Part shown: piece after piece, positions 14,463 through 42,636 of the stretch
Numbering within the stretch: the first letter of the stretch is position 1
Layout: every line of letters starts with the position of its first letter
NCBI GenBank assembly: GCA_000002445.1
Contig: CH464491.1
Location: 2,304,001 to 2,368,000 of the forward strand
DNA from: Trypanosoma brucei
Taxonomy: Eukaryota
DNA length: 64,000 bases
Reading direction: 5' to 3'
Program-made: the position numbers and the translations under genes
Notes under the pieces: model-generated
Database searches by the model: none
What the model was told of the DNA's origin: nothing
The model's input: only the letters and a program-made list of their open reading frames with translations

Positions 14463-15387
14463 AAATATGTCAAAAATTATTGAAAACAAAAGAGAGATAT
14501 ATATTTTTTTAAAAATGTTTTTAGTTCAAAAAGATTTTTTTTAAAACACTTCAAAAGCTTACTAAATAAAATGATCGTAAAATAACTCACAAAAAAATTA
14601 CAATAAACAACAACCATTATAACAATTTCCACAAATCTCCTTTTCAATAAACAAAGTTAAGAATACATATATACATTCAAGCCAGGTTCACAAAAGGTAT
14701 TATAGGAAGAGAACAACAAACACCTACTACAGAAACAAATGTTAAAACAACAACAGTAACAAACATTAAAGAAAAATATCAGGTAGAAAAAATGGTTTTC
14801 CCTACATGCCACCACAAAAGCATAAGGAGGTCCACTACAATTATACTGTTGTTCCCAGATATACGGGTGTGCGCCTAAAGGGACACGTGACGTTCAAATT
14901 GGATATCCCTCCCATTGTTGACCGTATCTCACATTATTGGATATGTTGTAATCACTGACGGCTTGCTGTGAACTGCCACAGCTGTACACATGCACACACA
15001 TGTGATTCGGTTTTTCTTCTCCCAATATCCTTCCTTTCATATAATATAGGCAACCACACAATATTGGCACAACACCTGCTATCAAACTACCCTAACCCAA
15101 GTGTCTGTTTGTTTCTTTACGTCACTGGGAGGGTTTTAACAAGAACTAACATTGAGTCTGACTATGTGTGGGGGAGAAGAGAATGGTGGATTGGATCAGG
15201 CACATGTGTCCTACAGTGGCAGTGCGAGTGAGCAAAACATTGCGGAAATGATTGTAGACCCATCAGGTTCCCGTCAGCCCACAGCATTCCAACTCACACT
15301 CGATTGCAATAAGGCAGGAATGGGAAATGTGGATAAGGAACGTGTGGAAGCTATTATACGTAATGTAAGGGAAGGCTCACCTTTTTT

Positions 15388-16881
15388 ATGAATGAGCAGC
15401 GTTTGGCTGAGGGTCGAGAGAAGCAACTGCAAGAGCTGAAGCGGAAATCATCTCTCTTCACTCAGTTGTTGGGTGGTGAACGAAACGCTGCGCAGCGGAA
15501 ACAGTGGGAGCTGAAGGTTTCCAAAATAGAACAGGAGCTTGAGGCTACGCGTCGACTGGGAACTTATATCCATTTAGACATGGACATGTTTTATGCTGCT
15601 GTTGAAATCAAGAAGCATCCGGAGTACGCCGCCATTCCGCTTGCCATAGGCACAATAACGAGGTTGATAACAACAAATTATGTTGCGCGTGGACGTGGTA
15701 TTCGTCAAGGTATGCCAGGTTTCCTTGCTCTAAAAATCTGCCCGAATTTGCTCATTCTGCCTCCTGATTTCGATGCTTACAATGAGGAATCCAATACTGT
15801 GCGCCGTATTGTTGCTGAATACGACCCTAATTATATCAGCTTTGGTTTGGATGACTTTACTCTCGAAGTAAGTGCCTACATAGAGCGTTTTGAGGGAACC
15901 AAAACAGCCGAAGATGTGGCTTCTGAACTGCGTGTGCGTGTATTTGGTGAAACAAAGTTGACAGCAAGTGCTGGTATTGGACCCACTGCAGCACTTGCCA
16001 AGATTGCCAGTAATATTAATAAGCCGAATGGACAACATGATCTTAATCTTCACACCCGAGGGGATGTGATGACATACGTCAGGGATTTGGGTCTACGTTC
16101 TGTGCCTGGTGTTGGGAAGGTTACGGAAGCTCTGTTGAAGGGACTGGGTATCACCACTCTCTCAGATATTTACAATAGGCGTGTTGAACTTTGTTACATT
16201 TTGCACAATAATTTATTTCGCTTTTTGCTTGGAGCTTCCATTGGCATTATGCAATGGCCCGATGCAGCAACGGCAGCCAATACCGAGAATTGTGAGGGGG
16301 CTACTGGAGAGCAACGGAAGGCAATCAGTAGCGAGCGATCCATCACTACTCCACGAACCAAAGAAGGTATGCAGGAAATGCTTGATACCGTATTCAATGG
16401 TGCCTATGAAGAAATGCGGAAGAGTGAGCTAATGTGTAGACGCATTTCGTTAAGAATTAGGTGGGCCTCCTATCGTTATCAACAATACACAAAAAGTTTG
16501 ATACAATATTCAGATGACTCTGCAACCCTTCGCCGCGCAGTGGATGGTTTACTGTTACCGCATGCTGCAAAGTATTCAGAGATTTCACTGTTGGGGGTAC
16601 GTTTTCTTGACCTTATCTCTGCAAAAGACTTTCATATGAAAAGAAAGGGTGGTAACCAACTGTCTATTTCACAATTTATTCGCCCCAAGAAGCCGGGTGA
16701 GGTAACAGCAACCACCGGTATAAAAAGGGAGAGAACTACTGAACCGAAACAGGTTGTTGGAGTGAATCTATCATCAGATGACGAGGATGAGAATGATAGT
16801 GTTGGCTTGGCATCTAGCTCCACTATACTCGTTTCAACTGACAAAGGTACTGTTGAGAGGGAAGTTACCATAATTGAGTGA
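15388..16881 (+). CDS. DNA polymerase kappa (Y-family/DinB-like), array copy 1. The N-terminal 79 codons (15152-15391) lie in another frame because of a 1-nt loss, so this may be a pseudogene or a sequence error.
   Basis: The 497 aa ORF carries the Y-family catalytic motif 'HLDMDMFYAAVE', the 'SAGIGPTAALAKIAS' thumb motif and an HhH-like 'VPGVGKVTEALLKGLGI'. The upstream 79-aa ORF 'MSLTMCGG...GSPFL' is homologous to the N-terminus of the other copies but is frame-shifted at 15388. Confidence 0.6.
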   Translation: MNEQRLAEGREKQLQELKRKSSLFTQLLGGERNAAQRKQWELKVSKIEQELEATRRLGTYIHLDMDMFYAAVEIKKHPEYAAIPLAIGTITRLITTNYVARGRGIRQGMPGFLALKICPNLLILPPDFDAYNEESNTVRRIVAEYDPNYISFGLDDFTLEVSAYIERFEGTKTAEDVASELRVRVFGETKLTASAGIGPTAALAKIASNINKPNGQHDLNLHTRGDVMTYVRDLGLRSVPGVGKVTEALLKGLGITTLSDIYNRRVELCYILHNNLFRFLLGASIGIMQWPDAATAANTENCEGATGEQRKAISSERSITTPRTKEGMQEMLDTVFNGAYEEMRKSELMCRRISLRIRWASYRYQQYTKSLIQYSDDSATLRRAVDGLLLPHAAKYSEISLLGVRFLDLISAKDFHMKRKGGNQLSISQFIRPKKPGEVTATTGIKRERTTEPKQVVGVNLSSDDEDENDSVGLASSSTILVSTDKGTVEREVTIIE

Positions 16882-17287
16882 AATGAGGACATCAGTCAAT
16901 AGAAATTCCCACATTGCCCAATGGCATTCATATACAAATCACCTATACACAAGTACCCATAAACAAAACACATTATACACATGTATTGTTATACAGCTAT
17001 CATATGTTTTCATTTTTTGAAGTTATACTTTATATGGTTTATTACTTACATTGTTTTTTTCTTAAGCATGCTTGTGCTCATGTACAACCAGTGGAGCAAC
17101 TGGCTAATAACTCCTTCATCTTTGTGCGGACACCTTGGTGTATCCTATACTTTCTTTGAGGCCTTCTAATCCAGGTACTTTTTACACACTGTGACGCTAA
17201 TAAGTGTAGTTCTTTCTTTTGATTAATGTCTACTGCGTGCAGTGATGCGAAAAAGTCTGTACTTTATTTGTATGTTTATCTTCGGGT

Positions 17288-18181
17288 TTGATTTGTTTGG
17301 TTGCTGATGGCAGTGGAAGGCCTCTGCAATTATGTTTGTGTTTTTGTTTCTTTGTGTTGCTGTTTTTCTATATTTTTGGAGTTTGTTTTTTTTCTTCCTG
17401 TTTTTTTGCACTTCTTTTCTTTGCTTTCCTCTTGCAACATATTTTTTTATGTAATTGTATTTTTTTTGTGTGTGTAATGGTGGCGGATGTTGTTTTTGTT
17501 TTAGTAGTTGAAGTTTTTGTTTGTTGTTGGATTGAGAGCGACAACGGTAGTTTGCTGATGGTTTCGTTTATTTACAGCTGCGTCTCTAGTCGTCTGATGT
17601 TTGCTAGTGTGAAGAGGGCTGTTGGGCAATATTCATGTTTTCATGTGATTTGTTCCCCGCGCTTCCACAGTAACTATGTTGTGGGGGTCAACAAGGCGCC
17701 TAGTTGGATCGCGTCCCCGACAGAAAGGCGACGAAAGTTTGGTGAAGAGTGCCTTGCCGAAGGTAAAGAGCGGGATGGCGACATGGATGTAGAGCTTGTT
17801 CCCGTGGACGTGAAAAAGCTTGCTTTGCCCCTGCACCTCACGGACTCGATCCCGCAGGATATCGTCGATAATATCGTTGCGAGAGATAGAACACTTGTTT
17901 TCGCGCCAAACATGAAGATACTAGACCTGCACAGGCGGTTGTCCCGGATGAAGTATCGGATAAGCGTCCAGCCGCTTGGGAAGGTGCTGCACTTCCGATT
18001 CTTTCGGCTGTGTAAATTGTCCAGCGGTATGCCCGGAGATGTTACAGTGGAAACCTTCCGCAGCATCCAGCAGAAACTCTCCGAGTACACAAGATTTTTG
18101 GTGATGGATGAACGTTGGCCACTGGAGTTGTCATTAGAAATTACCCCCATTATTGAGCATCAACGGAAAGCAATGCTTTGA
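17288..18181 (+). other. partial duplicate (5' 0.9 kb) of the downstream Y-family paralog gene (=40702-41595), truncated by a scaffold gap
   Basis: The 297 aa ORF is identical except for 1 aa to the first 297 aa of the 40702-42636 ORF. The preceding intergenic region is of the array-terminal type. It ends at the N run beginning at 18186. Confidence 0.5.
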
Positions 18182-18185
18182 TGCC

Positions 18186-18286
18186 ANNNNNNNNNNNNNN
18201 NNNNNNNNNNNNNNNNNNNNNNNNNNNNNNNNNNNNNNNNNNNNNNNNNNNNNNNNNNNNNNNNNNNNNNNNNNNNNNNNNNNNNN
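18186..18286. other. assembly gap (N run)
   Basis: About 100 consecutive N. The sequence resumes in the middle of an array intergenic unit. Confidence 0.95.
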
Positions 18287-18899
18287 ACATGTATTGTTAT
18301 ACACCTATCATATGTTTTCATTTTTTGAAGTTATACTTTATATGGTTTATTACTTACATTGTTTTTTTCTTAAGCATGCTTGTGCTCATGTACAACCAGT
18401 GGAGCAACTGGCTAATAACTCCTTCATCTTTGTGCGGACACCTTGGTGTATCCTATACTTTCTTTGAGGCCTTCTAATCCAGGTACTTTTTACACACTGT
18501 GACGCTAATAAGTGTAGTTCTTTCTTTTGATTAATGTCTACTGCGTGCAGTGATGCGAAAAAGTGTGTACTTTATTTGTATGTTTATCTTCGGGTTTGAT
18601 TTGTTTGGTTGCTGATGACAGCGGAAGGTCTCTGCAATTATGAAAACTCATAAGGAGGTCCACTATAATTATACTGTTGTTCCCAGATATACGGGTGTGC
18701 GCCTAAAGGGACACGTGACGTTCAAATTGGATATCCCTCCCATTGTTGACCGTATCTCACATTATTGGATATGTTGTAATCACTGACGGCTTGCTGTGAA
18801 CTGCCACAGCTGTACACATGCACACACATGTGATTCGGTTTTTCTTCTCCTAATATCCTTCCTTTCATATAATATAGGCAACCACACAATATTGGCACA

Positions 18900-18979
18900 A
18901 CACCTGCTATCAAACTACCCTAACCCAAGTGTCTGTTTGTTTCTTTACGTCACTGGGAGGGTTTTAACAAGAACTAACA
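18900..18979 (+). promoter_or_regulatory. putative trans-splicing acceptor region (polypyrimidine tract plus AG) upstream of the pol kappa ATG. It is repeated in every array unit.
   Basis: 'ctgtttgtttctttacgtcactgggagggttttaacaagaactaacattgagtctgactATG' contains a pyrimidine tract followed by several AG dinucleotides 10-45 nt before the ATG. This is the typical kinetoplastid organisation. Nothing has been mapped experimentally. Confidence 0.3.
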
Positions 18980-20704
18980 TTGAGTCTGACTATGTGTGGG
19001 GGAGAAGAGAATGGTGGATTGGATCAGGCACATGTGTCCTACAGTGGCAGTGCGAGTGAGCAAAACATTGCGGAAATGATTGTAGACCCATCAGCTTCCC
19101 GTCAGCCCACAGCATTCCAACTCACACTCGATTGCAATAAGGCAGGAATGGGAAATGTGGATAAGGAGCGTGTCGCTGCAGTGATACATGAGATGTCTGC
19201 GGGATCAGGGTACCTTTGCAATCAGCAGCGTTTATCAAAAAGTCGAGAGAAGCAACTGCAAGAACTCAAGCGGAAATCATCTCTCTTCACTCAGTTGTTG
19301 GGTGGTGAACGAAACGCTGCGCGGCGGACGCAGTGGGAGGTGAAGGTTTCCAAAATAGAACAGGAGCTTGAGGCTACGCGTCGACTGGGAACTTATATCC
19401 ATTTAGACATGGACATGTTTTATGCTGCTGTTGAAATCAAGAAGCATCCGGAGTACGCCAACGTTCCGCTTGCAGTTGGAACTAAAACAATGCTAACAAC
19501 CGCAAATTATGTTGCTAGAGGTTGTGGTGTCCGTCCTGGTATGCCAGGTTATATCGGATTGAAGATTTGCCCGAATTTGCTCATTCTGCCTCCTGATTTC
19601 GATACTTACAATGAGGAATCCAATACTGTGCGCCGTATTGTTGCTGAATACGACCCTAATTACATCAGCTTTGGTTTGGATGAACTGACCCTTGAGGTAA
19701 GTGCCTACATAGAGCGTTTTGAGGGAACCAAAACAGCCGAAGATGTGGCTTCTGAACTGCGTGTGCGTGTATTTGGTGAAACAAAGTTGACAGCAAGTGC
19801 TGGTATTGGACCCACTGCAGCACTTGCCAAGATTGCCAGTAATATTAATAAGCCGAATGGACAACATGATCTTAATCTTCACACCCGAGGGGATGTGATG
19901 ACATACGTCAGGGATTTGGGTCTACGTTCTGTGCCTGGTATTGGGAAGGCTATGGAAGCTCTGTTGAAGGGACTGGGTATCACCACTCTCTCAGATATTT
20001 ACAATAGGCGTGTTGAACTTTGTTATATCTTTACCGAAAAAACATATCGCTTTTTGCTTGGAGCTTCCATTGGCATTATGCAATGGCCCGATGCGTGTAA
20101 TATACCGGGTGGCTCTGTCGATGATGGGACAGGTGTGGGAAGGAAGTCAGTTGGTAGTGAACGTACATTCAAAATATTGCAAAGCAAAGAGGAATTACAG
20201 GAAATTGTTGATTTTATTTTTAATTCTTCGTATGATGAACTAAAGAAACATGAGCTGATGTGTAGACAGGTTTCGTTAAGAATAAGGTGGGCAACCTATC
20301 GATCCCGGCAGTATACTATGAATTTAGCCCAACATTCAGATGACTCTGCAACCCTTCGCCGCGCAGTGGATGGTTTACTGTTACCGCATGCTGCAAAGTA
20401 CTCAGATATGTCGTTACTGGGGATGCGTCTGTTAGACCTTATCTTTGCAAAAGACTTTCATATGAAAAGAAAGGGTGGTAACCAACTGTCTATTTCACAA
20501 TTTATTCGCCCCAAGAAGCCGGGTGAGGTAACAGCAACCACCGGTATAAAAAGGGAGAGGACTACTGAACCGAAACAGGTTGTGGAAATAATAATATCAT
20601 CAGATGACGAGGATGAGAATGATAGTGTTGGCTTGGCATCTAGCTCCACTATACTCGTTTCAACTGGCAAAGGTACTGTTGAGAGGGAAGTTACCATAAT
20701 TTAG
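18980..20704 (+). CDS. DNA polymerase kappa (Y-family), array copy 2
   Basis: 574 aa ORF with DMDMFYAAVE, SAGIGPTAALAKIAS and an HhH motif. It carries variant cassettes 'KTMLTTANYVARGCGVRPGMPGYIGL' and 'IFTEKTYRF...TFKILQSKEELQEI'. Confidence 0.85.
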   Translation: MSLTMCGGEENGGLDQAHVSYSGSASEQNIAEMIVDPSASRQPTAFQLTLDCNKAGMGNVDKERVAAVIHEMSAGSGYLCNQQRLSKSREKQLQELKRKSSLFTQLLGGERNAARRTQWEVKVSKIEQELEATRRLGTYIHLDMDMFYAAVEIKKHPEYANVPLAVGTKTMLTTANYVARGCGVRPGMPGYIGLKICPNLLILPPDFDTYNEESNTVRRIVAEYDPNYISFGLDELTLEVSAYIERFEGTKTAEDVASELRVRVFGETKLTASAGIGPTAALAKIASNINKPNGQHDLNLHTRGDVMTYVRDLGLRSVPGIGKAMEALLKGLGITTLSDIYNRRVELCYIFTEKTYRFLLGASIGIMQWPDACNIPGGSVDDGTGVGRKSVGSERTFKILQSKEELQEIVDFIFNSSYDELKKHELMCRQVSLRIRWATYRSRQYTMNLAQHSDDSATLRRAVDGLLLPHAAKYSDMSLLGMRLLDLIFAKDFHMKRKGGNQLSISQFIRPKKPGEVTATTGIKRERTTEPKQVVEIIISSDDEDENDSVGLASSSTILVSTGKGTVEREVTII

Positions 20705-21497
20705 TGAAGTGAGGACATCAGTCAATGGAAACGCTCACATTGCCCAATGGCATTCATATACAAATCACCTATACACAAGTACCCATAAACAAAACACATT
20801 ATACACATGTATTGTTATACAGCTATCATATGTTTTCATTTTTTGAAGTTATACTTTATATGGTTTATTACTTACATTGTTTTTTTCTTAAGCATGCTTG
20901 TGCTCATGTACAACCAGTGGAGCAACTGGCTAATAACTCCTTCATCTTTGTGCGGACACCTTGGTGTATCCTATACTTTCTTTGAGGCCTTCTAATCCAG
21001 GTACTTTTTACACACTGTGACGCTAATAAGTGTAGTTCTTTCTTTTGATTAATGTCTACTGCGTGCAGTGATGTGAAAAAGTCTGTACTTTATTTGTATG
21101 TTTATCTTCGGGTTTGATTTGTTTGGTTGCTGATGACAGCGGAAGGCCTCTGCAATTATGAAAACTCATAAGGAGGTCCACTATAATTATACTGTTGTTC
21201 CCAGATATACGGGTGTGCGCCTAAAGGGACACGTGACGTTCAAATTGGATATCCCTCCCATTGTTGACCGTATCTCACATTATTGGATATGTTGTAATCA
21301 CTGACGGCTTGCTGTGAACTGCCACAGCTGTACACATGCACACACATGTGATTCGGTTTTTCTTCTCCCAATATCCTTCCTTTCATATAATATAGGCAAC
21401 CACACAATATTGGCACAACACCTGCTATCAAACTACCCTAACCCAAGTGTCTGTTTGTTTCTTTACGTCATTGGGAGGGTTTTAACAAGAACTAACA

Positions 21498-23228
21498 TTG
21501 AGTCTGACTATGTGTGGGGGAGAAGAGAATGGTGGATTGGATCAGGCACATGTGTCCTACAGTGGCAGTGCGAGTGAGCAAAACATTGCGGAAATGATTG
21601 TAGACCCATCAGCTTCCCGTCAGCCCACAGCATTCCAACTCACACTCGATTGCAATAAGGCAGGAATGGGAAATGTGGATAAGGAACGTGTGGAAGCTAT
21701 TATACGTGGTGCCGGGGAAGGCACACCTTTTTTATTAAATGAACAACGTTTGGTTGAGGGTCGAGAGAAGCAACTGCGGGAACTCAAACGGAAATCATCT
21801 CTCTTCACTCGGTTGTTGGGTGGTGAACGAAACGCTGCGCAGCGGACGCAATGGGAGGTGAAGGTTTCCAAAATAGAACAGGAGCTTGAGGCTACGCGTC
21901 GACTGGGAACTTATATCCATTTAGACATGGACATGTTTTATGCTGCTGTTGAAATCAAGAAGCATCCGGAGTACGCCACCATTCCGCTTGCCATAGGCAC
22001 CATGACGAGGCTACAAACAGCAAATTACATTGCGCGTGGACGTGGTATTCGTCAAGGTATGCCAGGTTTCCTTGCTCTAAAAATCTGCCCGAATTTGCTC
22101 ATTCTGCCTCCTGATGATGATTCTTACAATGAGGAATCCAATACTGTGCGCCGTATTGTTGCTGAATACGACCCTAATTACATAGTTGTTGGTTTGGATG
22201 AACTAGCCCTTGAGGTAAGTGCCTACATAGAGCGTTTTGAGGGAACCAAAACAGCCGAAGATGTGGCTTCTGAACTGCGTGTGCGTGTATTTGGTGAAAC
22301 AAAGTTGACAGCAAGTGCTGGTATTGGACCCACTGCAGCACTTGCCAAGATTGCCAGTAATATTAATAAGCCGAATGGACAACATGATCTTAATCTTCAT
22401 ACCCGAGAGGATGTGATGACATACGTCAGGGATTTGGGTCTACGTTCTGTGCCTGGTGTTGGGAAGGTTACGGAAGCTCTGTTGAAGGGACTGGGTATCA
22501 CCACTCTCTCAGATATTTACAATAGGCGTGTTGAACTTTGTTACATTTTGCACAATAATTTATTTCGCTTTTTGCTTGGAGCTTCCATTGGCATTATGCA
22601 ATGGCCCGATGCAGCAACGGCAGCCAATACCGAGAATTGTGAGGGGGCTACTGGAGAGCAACGGAAGGCAATCAGTAGCGAGCGATCCATCACTACTCCA
22701 CGAACCAAAGAAGGTATGCAGGAAATGGTTGATACCGTATTCAATGGTGCCTATGAAGAAATGCGGAAGAGTGAGATAATGTGTAGACGGATATCCCTCA
22801 CAATTAGATGGGCGTCTTATCGTTATCAACAATACACAAAAAGTTTGATACAACATTCAGATGACTCTGCAACCCTTCGCCGCGCAGTAGACGAGCTCAT
22901 GTTACCGCACGCTGCAAAGTATTCAGAGATGTGTTTGTTGGGGGTACGTCTCTCGGACCTTATCTCTGCAAAAGACTTTCATATGAAAAGAAAGGGTGGT
23001 AACCAACTGTCTATTTCACAATTTATTCGCCCCAAGAAGCCGGGTGAGGTAACAGCAACCACCGGTATAAAAAGGGAGAGGACTACTGAACCGAAACAGG
23101 TTGTGGAAATAATAATATCATCAGATGACGAGGATGAGAATGATAGTGTTGGCTTGGCATCTAGCTCCACTATACTCGTTTCAACTGACAAAGGTACTGT
23201 TGAGAGGGAAGTTACCATAATTGAGTGA
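21498..23228 (+). CDS. DNA polymerase kappa (Y-family), array copy 3
   Basis: 576 aa ORF with the same catalytic motifs. Its cassettes are 'TMTRLQTANYIARGRGIRQ' plus 'PPDDDSYNEE' plus 'ILHNNLFRF...SITTPRTKEGMQEM'. Confidence 0.85.
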   Translation: MSLTMCGGEENGGLDQAHVSYSGSASEQNIAEMIVDPSASRQPTAFQLTLDCNKAGMGNVDKERVEAIIRGAGEGTPFLLNEQRLVEGREKQLRELKRKSSLFTRLLGGERNAAQRTQWEVKVSKIEQELEATRRLGTYIHLDMDMFYAAVEIKKHPEYATIPLAIGTMTRLQTANYIARGRGIRQGMPGFLALKICPNLLILPPDDDSYNEESNTVRRIVAEYDPNYIVVGLDELALEVSAYIERFEGTKTAEDVASELRVRVFGETKLTASAGIGPTAALAKIASNINKPNGQHDLNLHTREDVMTYVRDLGLRSVPGVGKVTEALLKGLGITTLSDIYNRRVELCYILHNNLFRFLLGASIGIMQWPDAATAANTENCEGATGEQRKAISSERSITTPRTKEGMQEMVDTVFNGAYEEMRKSEIMCRRISLTIRWASYRYQQYTKSLIQHSDDSATLRRAVDELMLPHAAKYSEMCLLGVRLSDLISAKDFHMKRKGGNQLSISQFIRPKKPGEVTATTGIKRERTTEPKQVVEIIISSDDEDENDSVGLASSSTILVSTDKGTVEREVTIIE

Positions 23229-24018
23229 AATGAGGACATCAGTCAATAGAAATTCCCACATTGCCCAATGGTATTCATATACAAATCACCTATACACAAG
23301 TACCCATAAACAAAACACATTATACACATGTATTGTTATACACCTATCATATGTTTTCATTTTTTGAAGTTATACTTTATATGGTTTATTACTTACATTG
23401 TTTTTTTCTTAAGCATGCTTGTGCTCATGTACAACCAGTGGAGCAACTGGCTAATAACTCCTTCATCTTTGTGCGGACACCTTGGTGTATCCTATACTTT
23501 CTTTGAGGCCTTCTAATCCAGGTACTTTTTACACACTGTGACGCTAATAAGTGTAGTTCTTTCTTTTGATTAATGTCTACTGCGTGCAGTGATGCGAAAA
23601 AGTCTGTACTTTATTTGTATGTTTATCTTCGGGTTTGATTTGTTTGGTTGCTGATGACAGCGGAAGGCCTCTGCAATTATGAAAACTCATAAGGAGGTCC
23701 ACTATAATTATACTGTTGTTCCCAGATATACGGGTGTGCGCCTAAAGGGACACGTGACGTTCAAATTGGATATCCCTCCCATTGTTGACCGTATCTCACA
23801 TTATTGGATATGTTGTAATCACTGACGGCTTGCTGTGAACTGCCACAGCTGTACACATGCACACACATGTGATTCGGTTTTTCTTCTCCCAATATCCTTC
23901 CTTTCATATAATATAGGCAACCACACAATATTGGCACAACACCTGCTATCAAACTACCCTAACCCAAGTGTCTGTTTGTTTCTTTACGTCACTGGGAGGG
24001 TTTTAACAAGAACTAACA

Positions 24019-28267: not shown

Positions 28268-28957
28268 AATGAGGACATCAGTCAATAGAAATTCCCTTTA
28301 TTCTAGCGGCATATTTATAGATATTTATTTCGGTTTTCCCATTCGGCAGAGAGAAATACAACATGTATTAAGTATTGGGGAGCAACTGGCTAATAACTCC
28401 TTCATCTTTGTGCGGACACCTTGGTGTATCCTATACTTTCTTTGAGGCCTTCTAATCCAGGTACTTTTTACACACTGTGACGCTAATAAGTGTAGTTCTT
28501 TCTTTTGATTAATGTCTACTGCGTGCAGTGATGCGAAAAAGTGTGTACTTTATTTGTATGTTTATCTTCGGGTTTGATTTGTTTGGTTGCTGATGACAGC
28601 GGAAGGCCTCTGCAATTATGAAAACTCATAAGGAGGTCCACTATAATTATACTGTTGTTCCCAGATATACGGGTGTGCGCCTAAAGGGACAGGTGACGTT
28701 CAAATTGGATATCCCTCCCATTGTTGACCGTATCTCACATTATTGGATATGTTGTAATCACTGACGGCTTGCTGTGAACTGCCACAGCTGTACACATGCA
28801 CACACATGTGATTCGGTTTTTCTTCTCCCAATATCCTTCCTTTCATATAATATAGGCAACCACACAATATTGGCACAACACCTGCTATCAAACTACCCTA
28901 ACCCAAGTGTCTGTTTGTTTCTTTACGTCATTGGGAGGGTTTTAACAAGAACTAACA

Positions 28958-35280: not shown

Positions 35281-36073
35281 TGAAATGAGGACATCAGTCA
35301 ATAGAAATTCCCACATTGCCCAATGGCATTCATATACAAATCACCTATACACAAGTACCCATAAACAAAACACATTATACACATGTATTGTTATACACCT
35401 ATCATATGTTTTCATTTTTTGAAGTTATACTTTATATGGTTTATTACTTACATTGTTTTTTTCTTAAGCATGCTTGTGCTCATGTACAACCAGTGGAGCA
35501 ACTGGCTAATAACTCCTTCATCTTTGTGCGGACACCTTGGTGTATCCTATACTTTCTTTGAGGCCTTCTAATCCAGGTACTTTTTACACACTGTGACGCT
35601 AATAAGTGTAGTTCTTTCTTTTGATTAATGTCTACTGCGTGCAGTGATGTGAAAAAGTCTGTACTTTATTTGTATGTTTATCTTCGGGTTTGATTTGTTT
35701 GGTTGCTGATGACAGTGGAAGGTCTCTGCAATTATGAAAACTCATAAGGAGGTCCACTATAATTATACTGTTGTTCCCAGATATACGGGTGTGCGCCTAA
35801 AGGGACAGGTGACGTTCAAATTGGATATCCCTCCCATTGTTGACCGTATCTCACATTATTGGATATGTTGTAATCACTGACGGCTTGCTGTGAACTGCCA
35901 CAGCTGTACACATGCACACACATGTGATTCGGTTTTTCTTCTCCCAATATCCTTCCTTTCATATAATATAGGCAACCACACAATATTGGCACAACACCTG
36001 CTATCAAACTACCCTAACCCAAGTGTCTGTTTGTTTCTTTACGTCACTGGGAGGGTTTTAACAAGAACTAACA

Positions 36074-37801
36074 TTGAGTCTGACTATGTGTGGGGGAGAA
36101 GAGAATGGTGGATTGGATCAGGCACATGTGTCCTACAGTGGCAGTGCGAGTGAGCAAAACATTGCGGAAATGATTGTAGACCCATCAGGTTCCCGTCAGC
36201 CCACAGCATTCCAACTCACACTCGATTGCAATAAGGCAGGAATGGGAAATGTGGATAAGGAACGTGTGGAAGCTATTATACGTGATGCCAGGGAAGGCAC
36301 ACCTTTTTTATTAAATGAACAACGTTTGGCTGAGGGTCGAGAGAAGCAACTGCAAGAGCTGAAGCGGAAATCATCTCTCTTCACTCGGTTGTTGGGTGGT
36401 GAACGAAACGCTGCGCAGCGGAAACAGTGGGAGCTGAAGGTTTCCAAAATAGAACAGGAGCTTGAGGCTACGCGTCGACTGGGAACTTATATCCATTTAG
36501 ACATGGACATGTTTTATGCTGCTGTTGAAATCAAGAAGCATCCGGAGTACGCCACCATTCCGCTTGCCATAGGCACCATGACTATGATAATAACAACAAA
36601 TTATGTTGCGCGTGGACGTGGTATTCGTCAAGGTATGCCAGGTTTCCTTGCTCTAAAAATCTGCCCAAATCTACTATTACTCCCTCCCGATGATGATTCC
36701 TACTATTTGGAATCCAATATCGTACGTCGTATTGTTGCTGAATACGACCCTAATTATATAGTTGTTGGTTTGGATGACTTTACTCTCGAAGTAAGTGCCT
36801 ACATAGAGCGTTTTGAGGGAACCAAAACAGCCGAAGATGTGGCTTCTGAACTGCGTGTGCGTGTATTTGGTGAAACAAAGTTGACAGCAAGTGCTGGTAT
36901 TGGACCCACTGCAGCACTTGCCAAGATTGCCAGTAATATTAATAAGCCGAATGGACAACATGATCTTAATCTTCACACGCGAGGGGATGTGATGACATAC
37001 GTCAGGGATTTGGGTCTACGTTCTGTGCCTGGTGTTGGGAAGGTTACGGAAGCTCTGTTGAAGGGACTGGGTATCACCACTCTCTCAGATATTTACAATA
37101 GGCGTGTTGAACTTTGTTACATTTTGCACAATAATTTATTTCGCTTTTTGCTTGGAGCTTCCATTGGCATTATGCAATGGCCCGATGCAGCAACGGCAGC
37201 CAATACCGAGAATTGTGAGGGGGCTACTGGAGAGCAACGGAAGGCAATCAGTAGCGAGCGATCCATCACTACTCCACGAACCAAAGAAGGTATGCAGGAA
37301 ATGGTTGATACCGTATTCAATGGTGCCTATGAAGAAATGCGGAAGAGTGAGATAATGTGTAGACGGATATCCCTCACAATTAGATGGGCCTCTTATCGTT
37401 ATCAACAATACACAAAAAGTTTGATACAATATTCAGATGACTCTGCAACCCTTCGCCGCGCAGTAGACGAGCTCATGTTACCGCACGCTGCAAAGTATTC
37501 AGAGATGTGTTTGTTGGGGGTACGTCTCTCGGACCTTATCTCTGCAAAAGACTTTCATATGAAAAGAAAGGGTGGTAACCAACTGTCTATTTCACAATTT
37601 ATTCGCCCCAAGAAGCCGGGTGAGGTAACAGCAACCACCGGTATAAAAAGGGAGAGGACTACTGAACCGAAACAGGTTGTGGAAATAATAATATCATCAG
37701 ATGACGAGGATGAGAATGATAGTGTTGGCTTGGCATCTAGCTCCACTATACTCGTTTCAACTGGCAAAGGTACTGTTGAGAGGGAAGTTACCATAATTTA
37801 G
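36074..37801 (+). CDS. DNA polymerase kappa (Y-family), array copy 9
   Basis: 575 aa ORF with cassette 'TMTMIITTNYVARGRGIRQ' plus 'LLLLPPDDDSYYLESNIVRR'. Confidence 0.85.
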   Translation: MSLTMCGGEENGGLDQAHVSYSGSASEQNIAEMIVDPSGSRQPTAFQLTLDCNKAGMGNVDKERVEAIIRDAREGTPFLLNEQRLAEGREKQLQELKRKSSLFTRLLGGERNAAQRKQWELKVSKIEQELEATRRLGTYIHLDMDMFYAAVEIKKHPEYATIPLAIGTMTMIITTNYVARGRGIRQGMPGFLALKICPNLLLLPPDDDSYYLESNIVRRIVAEYDPNYIVVGLDDFTLEVSAYIERFEGTKTAEDVASELRVRVFGETKLTASAGIGPTAALAKIASNINKPNGQHDLNLHTRGDVMTYVRDLGLRSVPGVGKVTEALLKGLGITTLSDIYNRRVELCYILHNNLFRFLLGASIGIMQWPDAATAANTENCEGATGEQRKAISSERSITTPRTKEGMQEMVDTVFNGAYEEMRKSEIMCRRISLTIRWASYRYQQYTKSLIQYSDDSATLRRAVDELMLPHAAKYSEMCLLGVRLSDLISAKDFHMKRKGGNQLSISQFIRPKKPGEVTATTGIKRERTTEPKQVVEIIISSDDEDENDSVGLASSSTILVSTGKGTVEREVTII

Positions 37802-38594
37802 TGAAATGAGGACATCAGTCAATAGAAATTCCCACATTGCCCAATGGCATTCATATACAAATCACCTATACACAAGTACCCATAAACAAAACACATTATA
37901 CACATGTATTGTTATACACCTATCATATGTTTTCATTTTTTGAAGTTATACTTTATATGGTTTATTACTTACATTGTTTTTTTCTTAAGCATGCTTGTGC
38001 TCATGTACAACCAGTGGAGCAACTGGCTAATAACTCCTTCATCTTTGTGCGGACACCTTGGTGTATCCTATACTTTCTTTGAGGCCTTCTAATCCAGGTA
38101 CTTTTTACACACTGTGACGCTAATAAGTGTAGTTCTTTCTTTTGATTAATGTCTACTGCGTGCAGTGATGCGAAAAAGTCTGTACTTTATTTGTATGTTT
38201 ATCTTCGGGTTTGATTTGTTTGGTTGCTGATGACAGTGGAAGGTCTCTGCAATTATGAAAACTCATAAGGAGGTCCACTATAATTATACTGTTGTTCCCA
38301 GATATACGGGTGTGCGCCTAAAGGGACACGTGACGTTCAAATTGGATATCCCTCCCATTGTTGACCGTATCTCACATTATTGGATATGTTGTAATCACTG
38401 ACGGCTTGCTGTGAACTGCCACAGCTGTACACATGCACACACATGTGATTCGGTTTTTCTTCTCCCAATATCCTTCCTTTCATATAATATAGGCAACCAC
38501 ACAATATTGGCACAACACCTGCTATCAAACTACCCTAACCCAAGTGTCTGTTTGTTTCTTTACGTCACTGGGAGGGTTTTAACAAGAACTAACA

Positions 38595-40322
38595 TTGAGT
38601 CTGACTATGTGTGGGGGAGAAGAGAATGGTGGATTGGATCAGGCACATGTGTCCTACAGTGGCAGTGCGAGTGAGCAAAACATTGCGGAAATGATTGTAG
38701 ACCCATCAGGTTCCCGTCAGCCCACAGCATTCCAACTCACACTCGATTGCAATAAGGCAGGAATGGGAAATGTGGATAAGGAACGTGTGGAAGCTATTAT
38801 ACGTAATGTATCTGAGGGTTCTTCCTTTTTGATGAATGAACAACGTTTGGCTGAGGGTCGAGAGAAGCAACTGCAAGAGCTCAAACGGAAATCATCTCTC
38901 TTCACTCAGTTGTTGGGTGGTGAACGAAACGCTGCGCAGCGGAAACAGTGGGAGCTGAAGGTTTCCAAAATAGAACAGGAGCTTGAGGCTACGCGTCGAC
39001 TGGGAACTTATATCCATTTAGACATGGACATGTTTTATGCTGCTGTTGAAATCAAGAAGCATCCGGAGTACGCCGCCATTCCGCTTGCCATAGGCACCAT
39101 GACGAGGCTACAAACAGCAAATTACATTGCGCGTGGACGTGGTGTTCGATGTAGCATGCCAGGTTTCCTTGCTCTAAAAATCTGCCCGAATTTGCTCATT
39201 CTGCCTCCTGATTTCGATGCTTACAACGAGGAATCCAATACTGTGCGCCGTATTGTTGCTGAATACGACCCTAATTATATCAGCTTTGGTTTGGATGAAC
39301 TGACCCTTGAGGTAAGTGCCTACATAGAGCGTTTTGAGGGAACCAAAACAGCCGAAGATGTGGCTTCTGAACTGCGTGTGCGTGTATTTGGTGATACAAA
39401 GTTGACAGCAAGTGCTGGTATTGGACCCACTGCAGCACTTGCCAAGATTGCCAGTAATATTAATAAGCCGAATGGACAACATGATCTTAATCTTCATACC
39501 CGAGAGGATGTGATGACATACGTCAGGGATTTGGGTCTACGTTCTGTGCCTGGTGTTGGGAAGGTTACGGAAGCTCTGTTGAAGGGACTGGGTATCACCA
39601 CTCTCTCAGATATTTACAATAGGCGTGTTGAACTTTGTTACATTTTGCACAATAATTTATTTCGCTTTTTGCTTGGAGCTTCCATTGGCATTGTGCAATG
39701 GCCCGATGCAGCAACGGCAGCCAATACCGAGAATTGTGAGGGGGCTACTGGAGGGCAACGGAAGGCAATCAGTAGCGAGCGATCCATCACTACTCCACGA
39801 ACCAAAGAAGGTATGCAGGAAATGGTTGATACCGTATTCAATGGTGCCTATGAAGAAATGCGGAAGAGTGAGCTGATGTGTAGACGCATTTCGTTAAGAA
39901 TAAGGTGGGCCTCCTATCGTTATCAACAATACACAAAAAGTTTGATACAATATTCAGATGACTCTGCAACCCTTCGCCGCGCAGTGGATGGTTTACTGTT
40001 ACCGCATGCTGCAAAGTATTCAGAGATTTCACTGTTGGGGGTACGTTTTCTTGACCTTATCTTTGCAAAAGACTTTCATATGAAAAGAAAGGGTGGTAAC
40101 CAACTGTCTATTTCACAATTTATTCGCCCCAAGAAGCCGGGTGAGGTAACAGCAACCACCGGTATAAAAAGGGAGAGGACTACTGAACCGAAACAGGTTG
40201 TGGAAATAATAATATCATCAGACGACGAGGATGAGAATGATAGTGTTGGCTTGGCATCTAGCTCCACTATACTCGTTTCAACTGACAAAGGTACTGTTGA
40301 GAGGGAAGTTACCATAATTTAG
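38595..40322 (+). CDS. DNA polymerase kappa (Y-family), array copy 10 (terminal)
   Basis: 575 aa ORF. It has 'RGVRCSMPGF' and, like copy 1, 'YSEISLLGVRFLDL'. The intergenic region after it has a 30-bp deletion relative to other units. Confidence 0.85.
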   Translation: MSLTMCGGEENGGLDQAHVSYSGSASEQNIAEMIVDPSGSRQPTAFQLTLDCNKAGMGNVDKERVEAIIRNVSEGSSFLMNEQRLAEGREKQLQELKRKSSLFTQLLGGERNAAQRKQWELKVSKIEQELEATRRLGTYIHLDMDMFYAAVEIKKHPEYAAIPLAIGTMTRLQTANYIARGRGVRCSMPGFLALKICPNLLILPPDFDAYNEESNTVRRIVAEYDPNYISFGLDELTLEVSAYIERFEGTKTAEDVASELRVRVFGDTKLTASAGIGPTAALAKIASNINKPNGQHDLNLHTREDVMTYVRDLGLRSVPGVGKVTEALLKGLGITTLSDIYNRRVELCYILHNNLFRFLLGASIGIVQWPDAATAANTENCEGATGGQRKAISSERSITTPRTKEGMQEMVDTVFNGAYEEMRKSELMCRRISLRIRWASYRYQQYTKSLIQYSDDSATLRRAVDGLLLPHAAKYSEISLLGVRFLDLIFAKDFHMKRKGGNQLSISQFIRPKKPGEVTATTGIKRERTTEPKQVVEIIISSDDEDENDSVGLASSSTILVSTDKGTVEREVTII

Positions 40323-40701
40323 TGAAATGAGGACATCAGTCAATAGAAATTCCCACATTGCCCAATGGCATTCATATACAAATCACCTATACACAAGTAT
40401 TGTTATACAGCTATCATATGTTTTCATTTTTTGAAGTTATACTTTATATGGTTTATTACTTACATTGTTTTTTTCTTAAGCATGCTTGTGCTCATGTACA
40501 ACCAGTGGAGCAACTGGCTAATAACTCCTTCATCTTTGTGCGGACACCTTGGTGTATCCTATACTTTCTTTGAGGCCTTCTAATCCAGGTACTTTTTACA
40601 CACTGTGACGCTAATAAGTGTAGTTCTTTCTTTTGATTAATGTCTACTGCGTGCAGTGATGCGAAAAAGTCTGTACTTTATTTGTATGTTTATCTTCGGG
40701 T

Positions 40702-42636
40702 TTGATTTGTTTGGTTGCTGATGGCAGTGGAAGGCCTCTGCAATTATGTTTGTGTTTTTGTTTCTCTGTGTTGCTGTTTTTCTATATTTTTGGAGTTTGT
40801 TTTTTTTCTTCCTGTTTTTTTGCACTTCTTTTCTTTGCTTTCCTCTTGCAACATATTTTTTTATGTAATTGTATTTTTTTTGTGTGTGTAATGGTGGCGG
40901 ATGTTGTTTTTGTTTTAGTAGTTGAAGTTTTTGTTTGTTGTTGGATTGAGAGCGACAACGGTAGTTTGCTGATGGTTTCGTTTATTTACAGCTGCGTCTC
41001 TAGTCGTCTGATGTTTGCTAGTGTGAAGAGGGCTGTTGGGCAATATTCATGTTTTCATGTGATTTGTTCCCCGCGCTTCCACAGTAACTATGTTGTGGGG
41101 GTCAACAAGGCGCCTAGTTGGATCGCGTCCCCGACAGAAAGGCGACGAAAGTTTGGTGAAGAGTGCCTTGCCGAAGGTAAAGAGCGGGATGGCGACATGG
41201 ATGTAGAGCTTGTTCCCGTGGACGTGAAAAAGCTTGCTTTGCCCCTGCACCTCACGGACTCGATCCCGCAGGATATCGTCGATAATATCGTTGCGAGAGA
41301 TAGAACACTTGTTTTCGCGCCAAACATGAAGATACTAGACCTGCACAGGCGGTTGTCCCGGATGAAGTATCGGATAAGCGTCCAGCCGCTTGGGAAGGTG
41401 CTGCACTTCCGATTCTTTCGGCTGTGTAAATTGTCCAGCGGTATGCCCGGAGATGTTACAGTGGAAACCTTCCGCAGCATCCAGCAGAAACTCTCCGAGT
41501 ACACAAGATTTTTGGTGATGGATGAACGTTGGCCACTGGAGTTGTCATTAGAAATTACCCCCATTATTGAGCATCAACGGAAGCAAATGCTTGAATGCCA
41601 AGGGGAATGCCGCGTTTCAACGGCGGAGGATGTAATGGAGTTACTTAGTAGTGTTTTTTCCGCTGAGCTCCGCGTGGGGGCGTGGTGCGGTTTGTCTTGC
41701 ACACCAGTCTTGGCGAAGATGGCGTGCGACGAGTGTCACAGGAAACACAAACTATGCCGACAGGACTATTCTCGCGGTGGGGTAGTAGGTACCGTGCGTT
41801 ACGATATTAGGTCGCACAAGGAGGCAAAGGAGTTTGTGCAGAACCTTTCGTTGGGCGATATTCCTGTTGTTGGGAAGCCACAGGCGAGGCTCCTGGAAGA
41901 TGTTTATGGCATTACCAAATGCGGCGGGATTGCGGATCAGGAGGTAAGACTGGGTTTCAGCCTGTCGCAGTCGACGATGGAGTTCTTCCTCTCTGTAGCG
42001 TATGGCACCGTTCGACTCCCTAGCGAGGCCACCACCACGCTTTTGCGCAAACCGCCGAGATGTAAGGCCGCCCATATACGGCGCGAGTCACAGTTTGGCC
42101 GTGTGGTATCAGACGAACAGTTTATCAACACCGTAATGTCCGTCTTCGACAACGTGTACACAGACCTTGTGGAACATGATTTCGTGACGGGACGGGTCAT
42201 GATCGAGACACGCCGCACACTCCCGCGCACTCATTGGGTGGTTGAAGAGAGCGAAGACATTGCGCCCCGAACGAACGACCGCGATTTGCTGCGGGAGGTA
42301 ACGATCCGCCTCGCAAGACGTTTTGCCCCACGGCGAACCGAAGAGCTGCGAGACATTTACAGCGTTGGTGTTCATTTCGGAGACGTGCGCTCGTGGTCAG
42401 AGAATGAGAGGTTGCAGAAGAAAGCTGTTGCAGTGAGCGAAGGGGGCAGCCCCACGACAGGCGGAAGGAAGGATGGCGTTATCGGTGCGGCGAACGGTGT
42501 CCCGGCGCCTACAGTGCCCAAGGGTAGCTCTTCCGCTGGGGCACGACAGCAGAAAAGAAAGAGAACGGGCACCGGTCCAAAGCCGTTGAGGAAAGGCAAG
42601 ATGGGGGCGGCATCGGGAATTCGCATCGTCACATAA
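40702..42636 (+). CDS. divergent Y-family DNA polymerase-like protein (distant pol kappa paralog). Catalytic motifs appear degenerate.
   Basis: The 644 aa ORF aligns by eye to the pol kappa copies: 'TAEDVMELLSSVFSAELRVGAWCGLSCTPVLAKMAC' vs 'TAEDVASELRVRVFGETKLTASAGIGPTAALAKIAS'; 'LSLGDIPVVGKPQARLLEDVYGITKCGGIAD' vs 'LGLRSVPGVGKVTEALLKGLGITTLSDI'; 'SGMPGD' vs 'PGMPGY'; 'LELSLEITPIIE' vs 'LDELTLEVSAYIE'. The first 100 codons are pyrimidine-rich leader that partly lies inside the array repeat. The true start is probably a downstream Met, for example MFASVKR near 41015. Confidence 0.65.
   Translation: MICLVADGSGRPLQLCLCFCFSVLLFFYIFGVCFFSSCFFALLFFAFLLQHIFLCNCIFFVCVMVADVVFVLVVEVFVCCWIESDNGSLLMVSFIYSCVSSRLMFASVKRAVGQYSCFHVICSPRFHSNYVVGVNKAPSWIASPTERRRKFGEECLAEGKERDGDMDVELVPVDVKKLALPLHLTDSIPQDIVDNIVARDRTLVFAPNMKILDLHRRLSRMKYRISVQPLGKVLHFRFFRLCKLSSGMPGDVTVETFRSIQQKLSEYTRFLVMDERWPLELSLEITPIIEHQRKQMLECQGECRVSTAEDVMELLSSVFSAELRVGAWCGLSCTPVLAKMACDECHRKHKLCRQDYSRGGVVGTVRYDIRSHKEAKEFVQNLSLGDIPVVGKPQARLLEDVYGITKCGGIADQEVRLGFSLSQSTMEFFLSVAYGTVRLPSEATTTLLRKPPRCKAAHIRRESQFGRVVSDEQFINTVMSVFDNVYTDLVEHDFVTGRVMIETRRTLPRTHWVVEESEDIAPRTNDRDLLREVTIRLARRFAPRRTEELRDIYSVGVHFGDVRSWSENERLQKKAVAVSEGGSPTTGGRKDGVIGAANGVPAPTVPKGSSSAGARQQKRKRTGTGPKPLRKGKMGAASGIRIVT

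What the first reader, a model, noticed from the sequence alone, without database searches (positions are those of the whole stretch)
14815..40745. Tandem array of at least 10 Y-family (pol kappa/DinB-like) translesion polymerase genes
Ten head-to-tail units of about 2.52 kb each carry an ORF of about 575 aa with the Y-family hallmarks DMDMFYAAVE, SAGIGPTAALAKIAS and an HhH motif. A scaffold gap inside the array means the real copy number may be higher. Most eukaryotes have a single POLK, and an expanded pol kappa array is a known peculiarity of African trypanosomes. An amplification this large implies either high dosage demand or a repertoire of lesion-bypass specificities.
Basis: partly seen in the sequence, partly recalled or inferred. 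Interest (0 to 1): 0.6.

Follow-up and report, generated by a model that had tools for sequence, protein, structure and literature searches.

The report
Known trypanosome DNA polymerase kappa array
This is the tandem array of about ten DNA polymerase kappa (damage-bypass polymerase) genes on chromosome 11 of the Trypanosoma brucei reference genome; it is real but already annotated and published, so it is not a new discovery.

Summary
There are ten head-to-tail units of about 2.52 kb at 14821-40750, all on the + strand. Each carries a Y-family polymerase gene whose best solved relative is human Pol kappa, N-clasp included.

Exact protein matches identify the window as T. brucei brucei TREU927 chromosome 11. 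The genes are already annotated 'DNA polymerase kappa, putative'. The array is array 112 in Jackson 2007 and Jackson 2010 (10 copies in T. b. brucei, 7 in T. b. gambiense, recombinant mosaics). It is also discussed in Stortz 2017 and in a 2020 polymerase survey. The finding is therefore already known.

- There are two 100-N gaps, not one.
- Copy 1 is frameshifted.
- Copy 1 looks like a first-copy/last-copy chimera followed by a near-identical duplicate of the downstream flank, so it is probably an assembly collapse or a one-copy allele.
- Copy 7 is broken by a gap.

The units are not identical (87.5-97.7%). The 5' spacer, palm/thumb and C-terminal tail are almost invariant. The N-clasp, fingers/active-site loop and little finger occur as deeply diverged, shuffled cassettes under purifying selection. 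Half the copies have Asp in place of the catalytic Glu. This favours dosage plus isoform diversity over dosage alone, but the functional part is inferred.

The parts
14821..17334 (+). Unit 1. POLK copy 1 runs from the ATG at 15164 to the stop at 16881. A 1-nt deletion near 15388 shifts the frame, and the gene is annotated as 497 aa from the ATG at 15388 (XP_828922).
   Evidence: Searches give the unit and the frameshift; one search gives the exact match to XP_828922. The 5' half resembles the first copy of T. b. gambiense and T. b. equiperdum. The 3' half resembles the last copy of T. b. gambiense, including the private VVGVNLSS variant.
17335..18186 (+). Duplicate of the array's downstream flank (the 5' part of the divergent Y-family paralogue), ending at gap 1.
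   Evidence: It has 1 mismatch in about 1180 bp to 40400-41575, apart from the last 20 bases before the gap. It is absent after the first copy in T. b. gambiense and T. b. equiperdum.
18187..18286 (.). Scaffold gap 1 (100 N).
   Evidence: The sequence after it (18287-18648) is an internal spacer that normally follows a POLK stop codon, so at least one coding sequence is unseen.
18649..21166 (+). Unit 2. POLK copy 2, CDS 18992-20704 (570 aa). It carries the most divergent N-clasp and a beta-type little finger, and its catalytic motif is LDE.
21167..23687 (+). Unit 3. POLK copy 3, CDS 21510-23228 (572 aa), catalytic motif LDE.
   Evidence: It is 99.3% identical to the penultimate T. b. gambiense copy.
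23688..26208 (+). Unit 4. POLK copy 4, CDS 24031-25746 (571 aa, XP_828926). It has an ancestral-type fingers loop (GSVSMLSTANY) and catalytic motif LDD.
26209..28626 (+). Unit 5. POLK copy 5, CDS 26552-28267 (571 aa, XP_828927). The unit is 2418 bp because of a deletion of about 103 bp in its 3' spacer. It has a delta-type little finger and catalytic motif LDE.
28627..31147 (+). Unit 6. POLK copy 6, CDS 28970-30685 (571 aa), catalytic motif LDD.
31148..33224 (+). Unit 7. POLK copy 7, CDS from 31491, interrupted by gap 2 (31978-32077). There is a 1-nt deletion near its 3' end. The two sides of the gap may belong to different units.
   Evidence: The 3' side is identical to copy 2 in the little-finger blocks.
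33225..35742 (+). Unit 8. POLK copy 8, CDS 33568-35280 (570 aa), catalytic motif LDD.
   Evidence: It is 100% identical to P0016.
35743..38263 (+). Unit 9. POLK copy 9, CDS 36086-37801 (571 aa), catalytic motif LDD.
38264..40750 (+). Unit 10. POLK copy 10, CDS 38607-40322 (571 aa), catalytic motif LDE, followed by the terminal remnant of the spacer.
40972..42636 (+). Divergent Y-family paralogue immediately downstream of the array. It is annotated as a 554-aa 'hypothetical protein, conserved' in T. b. gambiense. It is not part of the repeat but belongs to the locus.
   Evidence: Pfam finds a partial IMS domain. It is 24% identical to POLK over palm, thumb and little finger. Orthologues exist across Trypanosoma. 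The motif III Asp is missing.

Best explanation
This is the published POLK tandem array of T. brucei brucei TREU927 chromosome 11. At least nine or ten Pol kappa paralogues lie head to tail inside one polycistronic transcription unit.

Shown here:
- The units are genuine, mutually distinct Pol kappa genes.
- The 5' spacer, N-terminus, palm core, HhH thumb and C-terminal tail are kept almost identical between units.
- Three coding blocks exist as deeply diverged cassettes that are combined differently in different copies. These are the N-clasp, the fingers with the active-site loop plus adjacent palm, and the little finger/PAD.

Inferred:
- Unequal crossing-over made the array, and gene conversion homogenises most of each unit.
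- Because trypanosome genes lack individual promoters, copy number raises total POLK mRNA.
- The retained cassettes give at least eight different isoforms, which probably differ in lesion or substrate preference.

From the literature: RNAi against POLK sensitises T. brucei to MMS.
For: Identity:
- The proteins match XP_828922, XP_828926 and XP_828927 exactly; all are 'DNA polymerase kappa, putative', T. brucei TREU927, on a contig of 5,261,801 bp.
- Human Pol kappa is the best PDB hit at E = 8e-74, and the alignment includes the N-clasp.
- Pfam finds IMS, IMS_HHH and IMS_C.

Array structure:
- The period is 2521/2518. Units are 87.5-97.7% identical.
- All sizeable ORFs with Pfam hits lie on the + strand.

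Distribution of variation:
- Variable sites number 4/331 in the 5' spacer, 303/788 in the three coding blocks and 65/933 in the rest of the CDS.
- Nucleotide diversity is about 0.25 in the blocks against 0-0.02 elsewhere.
- In the blocks dS is 0.36-0.65 and dN/dS is 0.25-0.43.

Shuffling of cassettes:
- Copies 4 and 5 share N-clasp and fingers but differ by 38% in the little finger.
- Copies 4 and 8 have identical little fingers but differ by 27% in the fingers.
- Hudson-Kaplan Rm is at least 44.

Persistence: the isoform types recur in T. b. gambiense and T. b. equiperdum at 97-99% identity.

Lesion-selectivity positions: the copies differ at the equivalents of human V130 (V or I) and M135 (M or R), inside the active-site loop 127-141. 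That loop is linked to lesion selectivity in PMC6695781.

Literature:
- Array 112 has 10 copies in T. b. brucei and 7 in T. b. gambiense, with PHI p < 0.001 (PMC2854126; PMC1855330).
- POLK was a hit in the MMS RIT-seq screen, and the paper states that the selection pressure behind the expansion is unknown (PMC5542689).
Against: - No expression, protein or activity data for individual copies were available here.
- dN/dS is below 1 almost everywhere, so there is no signature of recent positive selection.
- Diverged blocks could persist simply because gene conversion fails once sequences are too different. That would need no selection for diversity.
- Five copies have Asp in place of the catalytic Glu, copy 1 is frameshifted and copy 7 is broken, so some copies may be impaired.
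- The exact copy number is uncertain because of the two gaps and the chimeric copy 1.
Confidence: 0.9

Rival explanations
1. Pure dosage array. The copies exist only to raise POLK expression in an organism without gene-specific promoters. The sequence differences are functionally neutral leftovers that gene conversion has not erased.
For: [quoted passage not shown]
- dN/dS in the blocks is below 1, so there is no positive-selection signal.
- The catalytic Asp residues, the steric-gate Tyr, the HhH motif and the PIP-like motif are the same in all complete copies.
Against: - Variation is not spread neutrally. The non-coding 5' spacer is nearly invariant (4/331 sites), while the substrate-contacting coding blocks differ by up to 35-48% at the nucleotide level.
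- The same cassette types are kept in three subspecies.
- Differences fall on positions whose mutation changes lesion selectivity in human Pol kappa.
Confidence: 0.3
2. Assembly expansion artefact. Only one or two real copies exist, and the assembler multiplied them.
For: - There are two scaffold gaps inside the array.
- Copy 1 looks like a collapsed first/last chimera next to a duplicated flank.
- A 2025 review lists the TREU927 POLK genes under Tb11.v5.* identifiers. To my own knowledge these denote unplaced contigs, which would mean the region is hard to assemble.
Against: - All ten units are distinct, with at least 2.3% pairwise difference and many private combinations. An assembler multiplying 1-2 templates cannot produce that.
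- Even if two haplotypes had been concatenated, at least five copies per haplotype would be needed.
- T. b. gambiense has 7 copies over about 16.8 kb, and T. b. equiperdum also shows tandem POLK.
- Jackson 2010 reports 10 and 7 annotated copies.
Confidence: 0.02
3. Decaying array. Only a few copies encode active polymerase, and the rest are drifting towards pseudogenes through the Glu-to-Asp change in the active site, frameshifts and truncation.
For: - LDD replaces the catalytic LDE in copies 1, 4, 6, 8 and 9. E occurs at this position in 111 of the 132 Pol kappa-family sequences scanned (12 gave no motif match); D occurs only in T. brucei-group copies and one unnamed sequence.
- Copy 1 is frameshifted, and copy 7 has a 1-nt deletion.
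Against: - The LDD copies keep full-length ORFs, and their divergent blocks show dN/dS of 0.25-0.43.
- LDD copies are conserved in T. b. gambiense and T. b. equiperdum.
- Asp still provides a carboxylate.
- The frameshifts lie in copies that adjoin gaps or show low-quality sequence.
Confidence: 0.1

Closest known systems
T. brucei DNA polymerase kappa tandem array (array 112; Tb11.01.0080 and neighbours; Jackson 2007 and 2010)
   Same: It is the same locus. Protein sequences match exactly, as do chromosome 11, the count of about 10 copies, the mosaic/recombinant structure and overall divergence. My dS/dN is 0.177/0.067; Jackson 2007's table gives 0.2129/0.0892 in its two divergence columns, which I took to be dS and dN without checking the header.
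   Different: Nothing differs in kind. I did not find the following in the papers I read: mapping of the variable blocks onto N-clasp, fingers loop and little finger; the catalytic Glu/Asp dimorphism; and the chimeric nature of copy 1.
Human DNA polymerase kappa (POLK; PDB 2OH2, 5W2A, 6CST)
   Same: The N-clasp, palm, fingers, thumb (HhH) and little finger all align, with E = 8e-74. Catalytic D107 and D198, and the F111/Y112 steric gate, are conserved.
   Different: The T. brucei proteins are 570-572 aa. They lack the insert between human residues about 211 and 288. They have no UBZ zinc fingers, because the tail contains no Cys. The tail carries a PIP-like QLSISQFI and an acidic-flanked hydrophobic VVEIIISSDDEDEND instead. 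Half the copies have Asp at the E199 position. The gene is multi-copy rather than single.
T. cruzi Pol kappa (TcCLB.503755.10/.30; Rajao 2009)
   Same: These are orthologous Y-family enzymes at 45-51% identity, at a syntenic locus next to the same divergent paralogue. One was shown experimentally to bypass 8-oxoG and to extend D-loops (cited).
   Different: T. cruzi has two differentiated paralogues, one of them mitochondrial. T. brucei has about ten copies evolving in concert. The acidic N-terminus of the T. brucei copies does not look like a mitochondrial presequence; this is my own reading and was not tested.
Other variable tandem arrays in T. brucei that evolve in concert (for example BARP, ISG65, adenylate cyclase GRESAG4)
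   Same: The coding sequence is more variable than the flanking UTRs, the phylogenetic signal is mosaic, and recombinants differ between subspecies.
   Different: Those arrays mostly encode surface or transport proteins. This one encodes a DNA repair enzyme, and its variation lies in the substrate-binding modules.

Membership tests
Y-family DNA polymerase, DinB/Pol kappa subfamily | Palm/fingers catalytic domain (Pfam IMS) with three catalytic carboxylates (human D107, D198, E199). | tested here: met
   IMS scores E = 2e-41 over the full profile length. The DMD and LD[E/D] motifs align to human D107 and D198/E199 (residues named in PMC6695781). Caveat: the third carboxylate is Asp instead of Glu in copies 1, 4, 6, 8 and 9.
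Y-family DNA polymerase, DinB/Pol kappa subfamily | Little finger / polymerase-associated domain (IMS_C) and HhH thumb. | tested here: met
   IMS_C scores E = 2e-11 and IMS_HHH scores E = 1e-6, both above the Pfam cut-offs.
Y-family DNA polymerase, DinB/Pol kappa subfamily | N-terminal N-clasp extension, which is unique to eukaryotic Pol kappa. | tested here: met
   The alignment to human Pol kappa starts at human residue 17. The conserved stretch NKAGMxxxDKExxxxII lies upstream of the catalytic DMD motif.
Y-family DNA polymerase, DinB/Pol kappa subfamily | Steric-gate aromatic residue after the first catalytic Asp (human F111/Y112). | tested here: met
   DMDMFYAAVE is identical in all nine copies scanned (copy 7 was not scanned; its translation reads DMDMFYAAVX, with the F-Y gate present).
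Y-family DNA polymerase, DinB/Pol kappa subfamily | The closest relatives by sequence are Pol kappa rather than Pol eta, Rev1 or Pol iota. | tested here: met
   The top PDB hits are all human Pol kappa, then bacterial Pol IV. Rev1 scores only E = 7e-24. The named database hits listed are almost all called DNA polymerase kappa, POLK or DNA polymerase IV.
Metazoan-type Pol kappa regulatory tail | C-terminal UBZ zinc fingers, Rev1-interacting region and PIP box. | tested here: not met
   There is no zinc-finger Pfam hit, and the 85-aa tail contains no cysteine. Only a PIP-like QLSISQFI is seen, and its function is untested. This concerns the regulatory tail only, not membership of the catalytic family.
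Tandem gene array evolving in concert | Head-to-tail units on the same strand with a constant period and homologous spacers. | tested here: met
   The periods are 2521/2518/2418. The spacers are over 98% identical.
Tandem gene array evolving in concert | Evidence of exchange between units (mosaic or incongruent similarity along the unit). | tested here: met
   Groupings differ from block to block. 42% of informative site pairs fail the four-gamete test, and Rm is at least 44. Jackson 2010 reports PHI p < 0.001.
Active DNA polymerase (each copy) | Demonstrated nucleotidyl-transfer or lesion-bypass activity and expression. | not testable with these tools
   Only indirect evidence exists: RNAi against POLK sensitised T. 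brucei to MMS in a RIT-seq screen (PMC5542689).

The most novel reading that the evidence does not exclude
The array may be more than a dosage device. It may be a combinatorial set of Pol kappa isoforms. On this reading, gene conversion keeps a common chassis identical: the spacers, palm, thumb and clamp-binding tail. Three old substrate-contact cassettes (N-clasp, active-site loop/fingers, little finger) and a catalytic Glu/Asp switch are retained and reshuffled. The parasite would then have enzymes tuned to different lesions or DNA structures.
Probability: 0.3. Interest if true: 0.5.

Novelty: already known. Interest (0 to 1): 0.2.

Why it matters
As a discovery it adds nothing. The locus is annotated in the reference genome and has been analysed as a tandem array since 2007.

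It still touches an open question. Stortz et al. 2017 state that the selection pressure behind the POLK expansion in T. brucei is unknown.

The domain-level picture obtained here turns 'dosage or repertoire' into a testable hypothesis. In that picture an invariant chassis carries shuffled, deeply diverged N-clasp, fingers-loop and little-finger cassettes, plus a Glu/Asp dimorphism at the catalytic site.

The analysis also warns users of this assembly. Copy 1 and the adjoining gene fragment are probably not a true part of a linear ten-copy array.

Tried and rejected
- TRF found no array because its period limit is 500. A k-mer spacing count was used instead.
- Rfam gave no RNA family anywhere in the window at gathering thresholds.
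- I looked for positive selection. Sliding-window dN/dS reaches about 1 only in the thumb-to-little-finger linker (codons 346-390) and in one short N-terminal window. It is 0.24 in the active-site loop. A 'recent diversifying selection' reading was therefore dropped in favour of 'old cassettes under purifying selection'.
- I tested whether copy 1 is simply a chimera of other TREU927 copies. It is not, because it has a private C-tail variant. That variant turned out to be the signature of the last copy in T. b. gambiense.
- A literature search for Glu-to-Asp mutants of Y-family catalytic sites (E106D) returned nothing useful.
- A PDB sequence search with the downstream divergent paralogue found nothing at E <= 0.01.
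- The region 9200-14820 upstream was inspected for genes or repeats related to the array. It holds only short, low-complexity ORFs and shares no homology with the array.


Full report
**Observation**

The window has two 100-N gaps (18187-18286 and 31978-32077) and two single Ns. Shared 30-mers peak sharply at spacings of 2521 (6574 k-mers) and 2518.

The ORF listing shows nine + strand ORFs at the same spacing, plus a shorter first one. Eight are 574-576 aa with a bacterial TTG start, which is 570-572 aa from the first ATG. DMDMFYAAVE and SAGIGPTAALAKIAS are present in every complete copy.

Copy 1 has a 1-nt deletion near 15388, so only a 497-aa ORF survives. Copy 7 is interrupted by gap 2 and has another 1-nt deletion near its 3' end.

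**What it is**

Pfam finds IMS (E = 2e-41), IMS_HHH and IMS_C, all above the curated cut-offs. The best solved relative is human Pol kappa at E = 8e-74. The alignment begins at human residue 17, so it includes the Pol kappa-specific N-clasp. The database hits are trypanosomatid and animal POLK.

Exact look-up shows that the translated copies are XP_828922, XP_828926 and XP_828927. All are 'DNA polymerase kappa, putative' of T. brucei brucei TREU927, on a 5,261,801-bp contig. The window is therefore reference chromosome 11.

The neighbours all lie on the + strand, as expected for a trypanosome polycistronic unit. They are:
- a HAD hydrolase
- two amastins
- a CCCH zinc-finger protein
- GP63
- an AAA ATPase
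- a DEAD helicase
- a syntaxin

**Already known**

- The array is number 112 in Jackson 2007 (PMC1855330).
- Jackson 2010 (PMC2854126) lists 10 annotated copies in T. b. brucei and 7 in T. b. gambiense, with 4 shared isoforms, significant recombination (PHI p < 0.001) and at least 10 GARD breakpoints.
- Stortz 2017 (PMC5542689) found POLK to be the most notable translesion polymerase hit in an MMS RIT-seq screen. That paper states that the selection pressure behind the expansion is unknown.
- A 2020 survey (PMC7576959) and a 2025 review (PMC12578213) also note the amplification.

**Anatomy beyond the annotation**

Units are 87.5-97.7% identical, and the differences are strongly localised. In the 331-bp 5' spacer only 4 sites vary. 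In three coding blocks 303 of 788 sites vary. In the rest of the CDS 65 of 933 sites vary. Nucleotide diversity is about 0.25 in the blocks against 0-0.02 elsewhere.

The blocks map onto human Pol kappa as follows (domain and residue roles from PMC6695781):
- Codons 67-90 correspond to the N-clasp.
- Codons 151-250 correspond to the fingers, including the active-site loop 127-141, and the adjoining palm with motif III.
- Codons 351-490 correspond to the linker and the little finger/PAD.

Within the blocks dS is 0.36-0.65 and dN/dS is 0.25-0.43. Sliding windows give dN/dS of about 1 only in the thumb-to-little-finger linker and 0.24 in the active-site loop. These are therefore old cassettes under purifying selection, not recent positive selection.

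The cassettes are combined differently in different copies:
- Copies 4 and 5 share N-clasp and fingers but differ by 38% in the little finger.
- Copies 4 and 8 have identical little fingers but differ by 27% in the fingers.
- 42% of informative site pairs fail the four-gamete test, and Rm is at least 44.

Between little-finger types, amino-acid identity within T. brucei is 58-62%. This is hardly more than the 46-55% identity to T. congolense. In the conserved blocks the copies are 93-100% identical to each other and 74-85% identical to T. congolense.

The same isoform types recur in T. b. gambiense and T. b. equiperdum at 97-99% identity.

In the active-site loop the copies differ at the equivalents of human V130 (V or I) and M135 (M or R). 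In human Pol kappa the V130I change relaxes discrimination against a major-groove adduct, and M135 is thought to exclude thymine dimers.

**Catalytic-site dimorphism**

The motif aligned to human S-L-D198-E199 reads GLDE in copies 2, 3, 5 and 10. It reads GLDD in copies 1, 4, 6, 8 and 9. The GLDD form also occurs in T. b. gambiense and T. b. equiperdum copies.

I scanned 132 Pol kappa-family sequences for this motif: the listed hits plus T. brucei cluster members.
- 111 have E at this position.
- 8 have D: seven T. brucei-group copies and one unnamed assembly-derived sequence.
- 12 gave no match to my motif pattern, and one gave a spurious match.

The functional consequence is unknown.

**Assembly issues**

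After copy 1, the sequence follows the normal spacer to 17334. It then continues into a copy of the array's downstream flank, 17335-18186. This copy has one mismatch in about 1180 bp, apart from the degraded last 20 bases, and it stops at gap 1. After the gap, the sequence starts inside a spacer that normally follows a POLK stop codon.

In T. b. gambiense (loci L001 and L004) and T. b. equiperdum (L002) the first copy is intact. It is followed by a second POLK unit, not by that fragment.

Copy 1 resembles the first copy of those subspecies in its 5' half. In its 3' half it resembles the last copy of T. b. gambiense. This includes the private tail variant VVGVNLSS, found otherwise only in that last copy and in one T. 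b. equiperdum copy.

Copy 1 plus the fragment is therefore either a collapse of the array by the assembler or a real one-copy recombinant allele. Either way, the count of 'ten' is approximate. Gap 2 could also hide whole units, because its two sides carry different cassette types.

The array itself is not an artefact. Every unit is distinct, and independent assemblies also show tandem copies.

**Mechanism**

Shown:
- A real tandem array of distinct POLK genes within one directional gene cluster.
- Homogenised spacers and chassis.
- Retained, shuffled cassettes in the DNA-contacting modules.

Inferred:
- Unequal crossing-over and gene conversion generate and maintain this pattern.
- Copy number raises expression in the absence of gene-specific promoters (Jackson 2007).
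- The cassette diversity gives isoforms with different substrate preferences.

The pure-dosage alternative cannot be excluded. Diverged blocks may simply escape conversion, and no isoform has been assayed.

**Verdict**

The feature is already known, so interest is low. The residual value lies in the cassette and Glu/Asp observations and in the assembly caveat.

Noticed in passing
window 40972-42636 (+): A divergent Y-family paralogue lies immediately downstream of the array. Pfam finds only a partial IMS hit, and it is 24% identical to POLK. The motif III Asp is missing, and the first catalytic Asp varies among its orthologues. It is conserved across Trypanosoma as a 'hypothetical protein' or 'UmuC domain' protein. 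It probably lies next to POLK in other species too, judged from shared contig lengths. It is possibly a catalytically dead pseudo-polymerase.
   Followed up: partly
window 16958-18186 versus 40373-41600: There is a near-identical duplicate of the array's downstream flank, including the 5' part of the divergent paralogue. It ends at gap 1 and is absent from T. b. gambiense and T. b. equiperdum. Copy 1 is a first-copy/last-copy chimera, which points to an assembly collapse or a one-copy allele.
   Followed up: yes
window, motif III of each copy (for example 24031-25746, residues LDD): The catalytic Glu (human E199 equivalent) is replaced by Asp in copies 1, 4, 6, 8 and 9, and in some T. b. gambiense and T. 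b. equiperdum copies. Of the 132 Pol kappa-family sequences scanned, 111 keep Glu, and Asp appears only in T. brucei-group copies and one unnamed sequence.
   Followed up: partly
window, C-terminal tails of the copies (for example 25480-25746): The tail is invariant. It carries a PIP-box-like QLSISQFI and a hydrophobic core flanked by Ser and acidic residues (VVEIIISSDDEDEND), which resembles a SUMO-interaction motif. There are no UBZ zinc fingers. The hydrophobic core is changed to VVGVNLSS only in copy 1 and in the terminal copy of T. b. gambiense.
   Followed up: partly
window 9200-14820: A stretch of about 5.6 kb between the CCCH zinc-finger gene and the array has low GC (0.35-0.36), is T-rich on the + strand, and has no convincing ORF. 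It is probably a very long UTR or intergenic region.
   Followed up: no
window about 28300-28626 (3' spacer of unit 5): Unit 5 is 2418 bp instead of 2521 bp because of a deletion of about 103 bp in its 3' spacer. The 3' spacers are more variable (59/354 sites) than the 5' spacers (4/331 sites).
   Followed up: partly
window about 42000 onward: GC content steps up from about 0.42-0.45 across the array to 0.48-0.58 downstream of it.
   Followed up: no
window 3664-4563 and 6168-7577; 44622-46496: Two amastin genes in tandem lie upstream of the array, and a GP63 (leishmanolysin) gene lies downstream. Surface-protein genes therefore flank a DNA-repair gene array.
   Followed up: no
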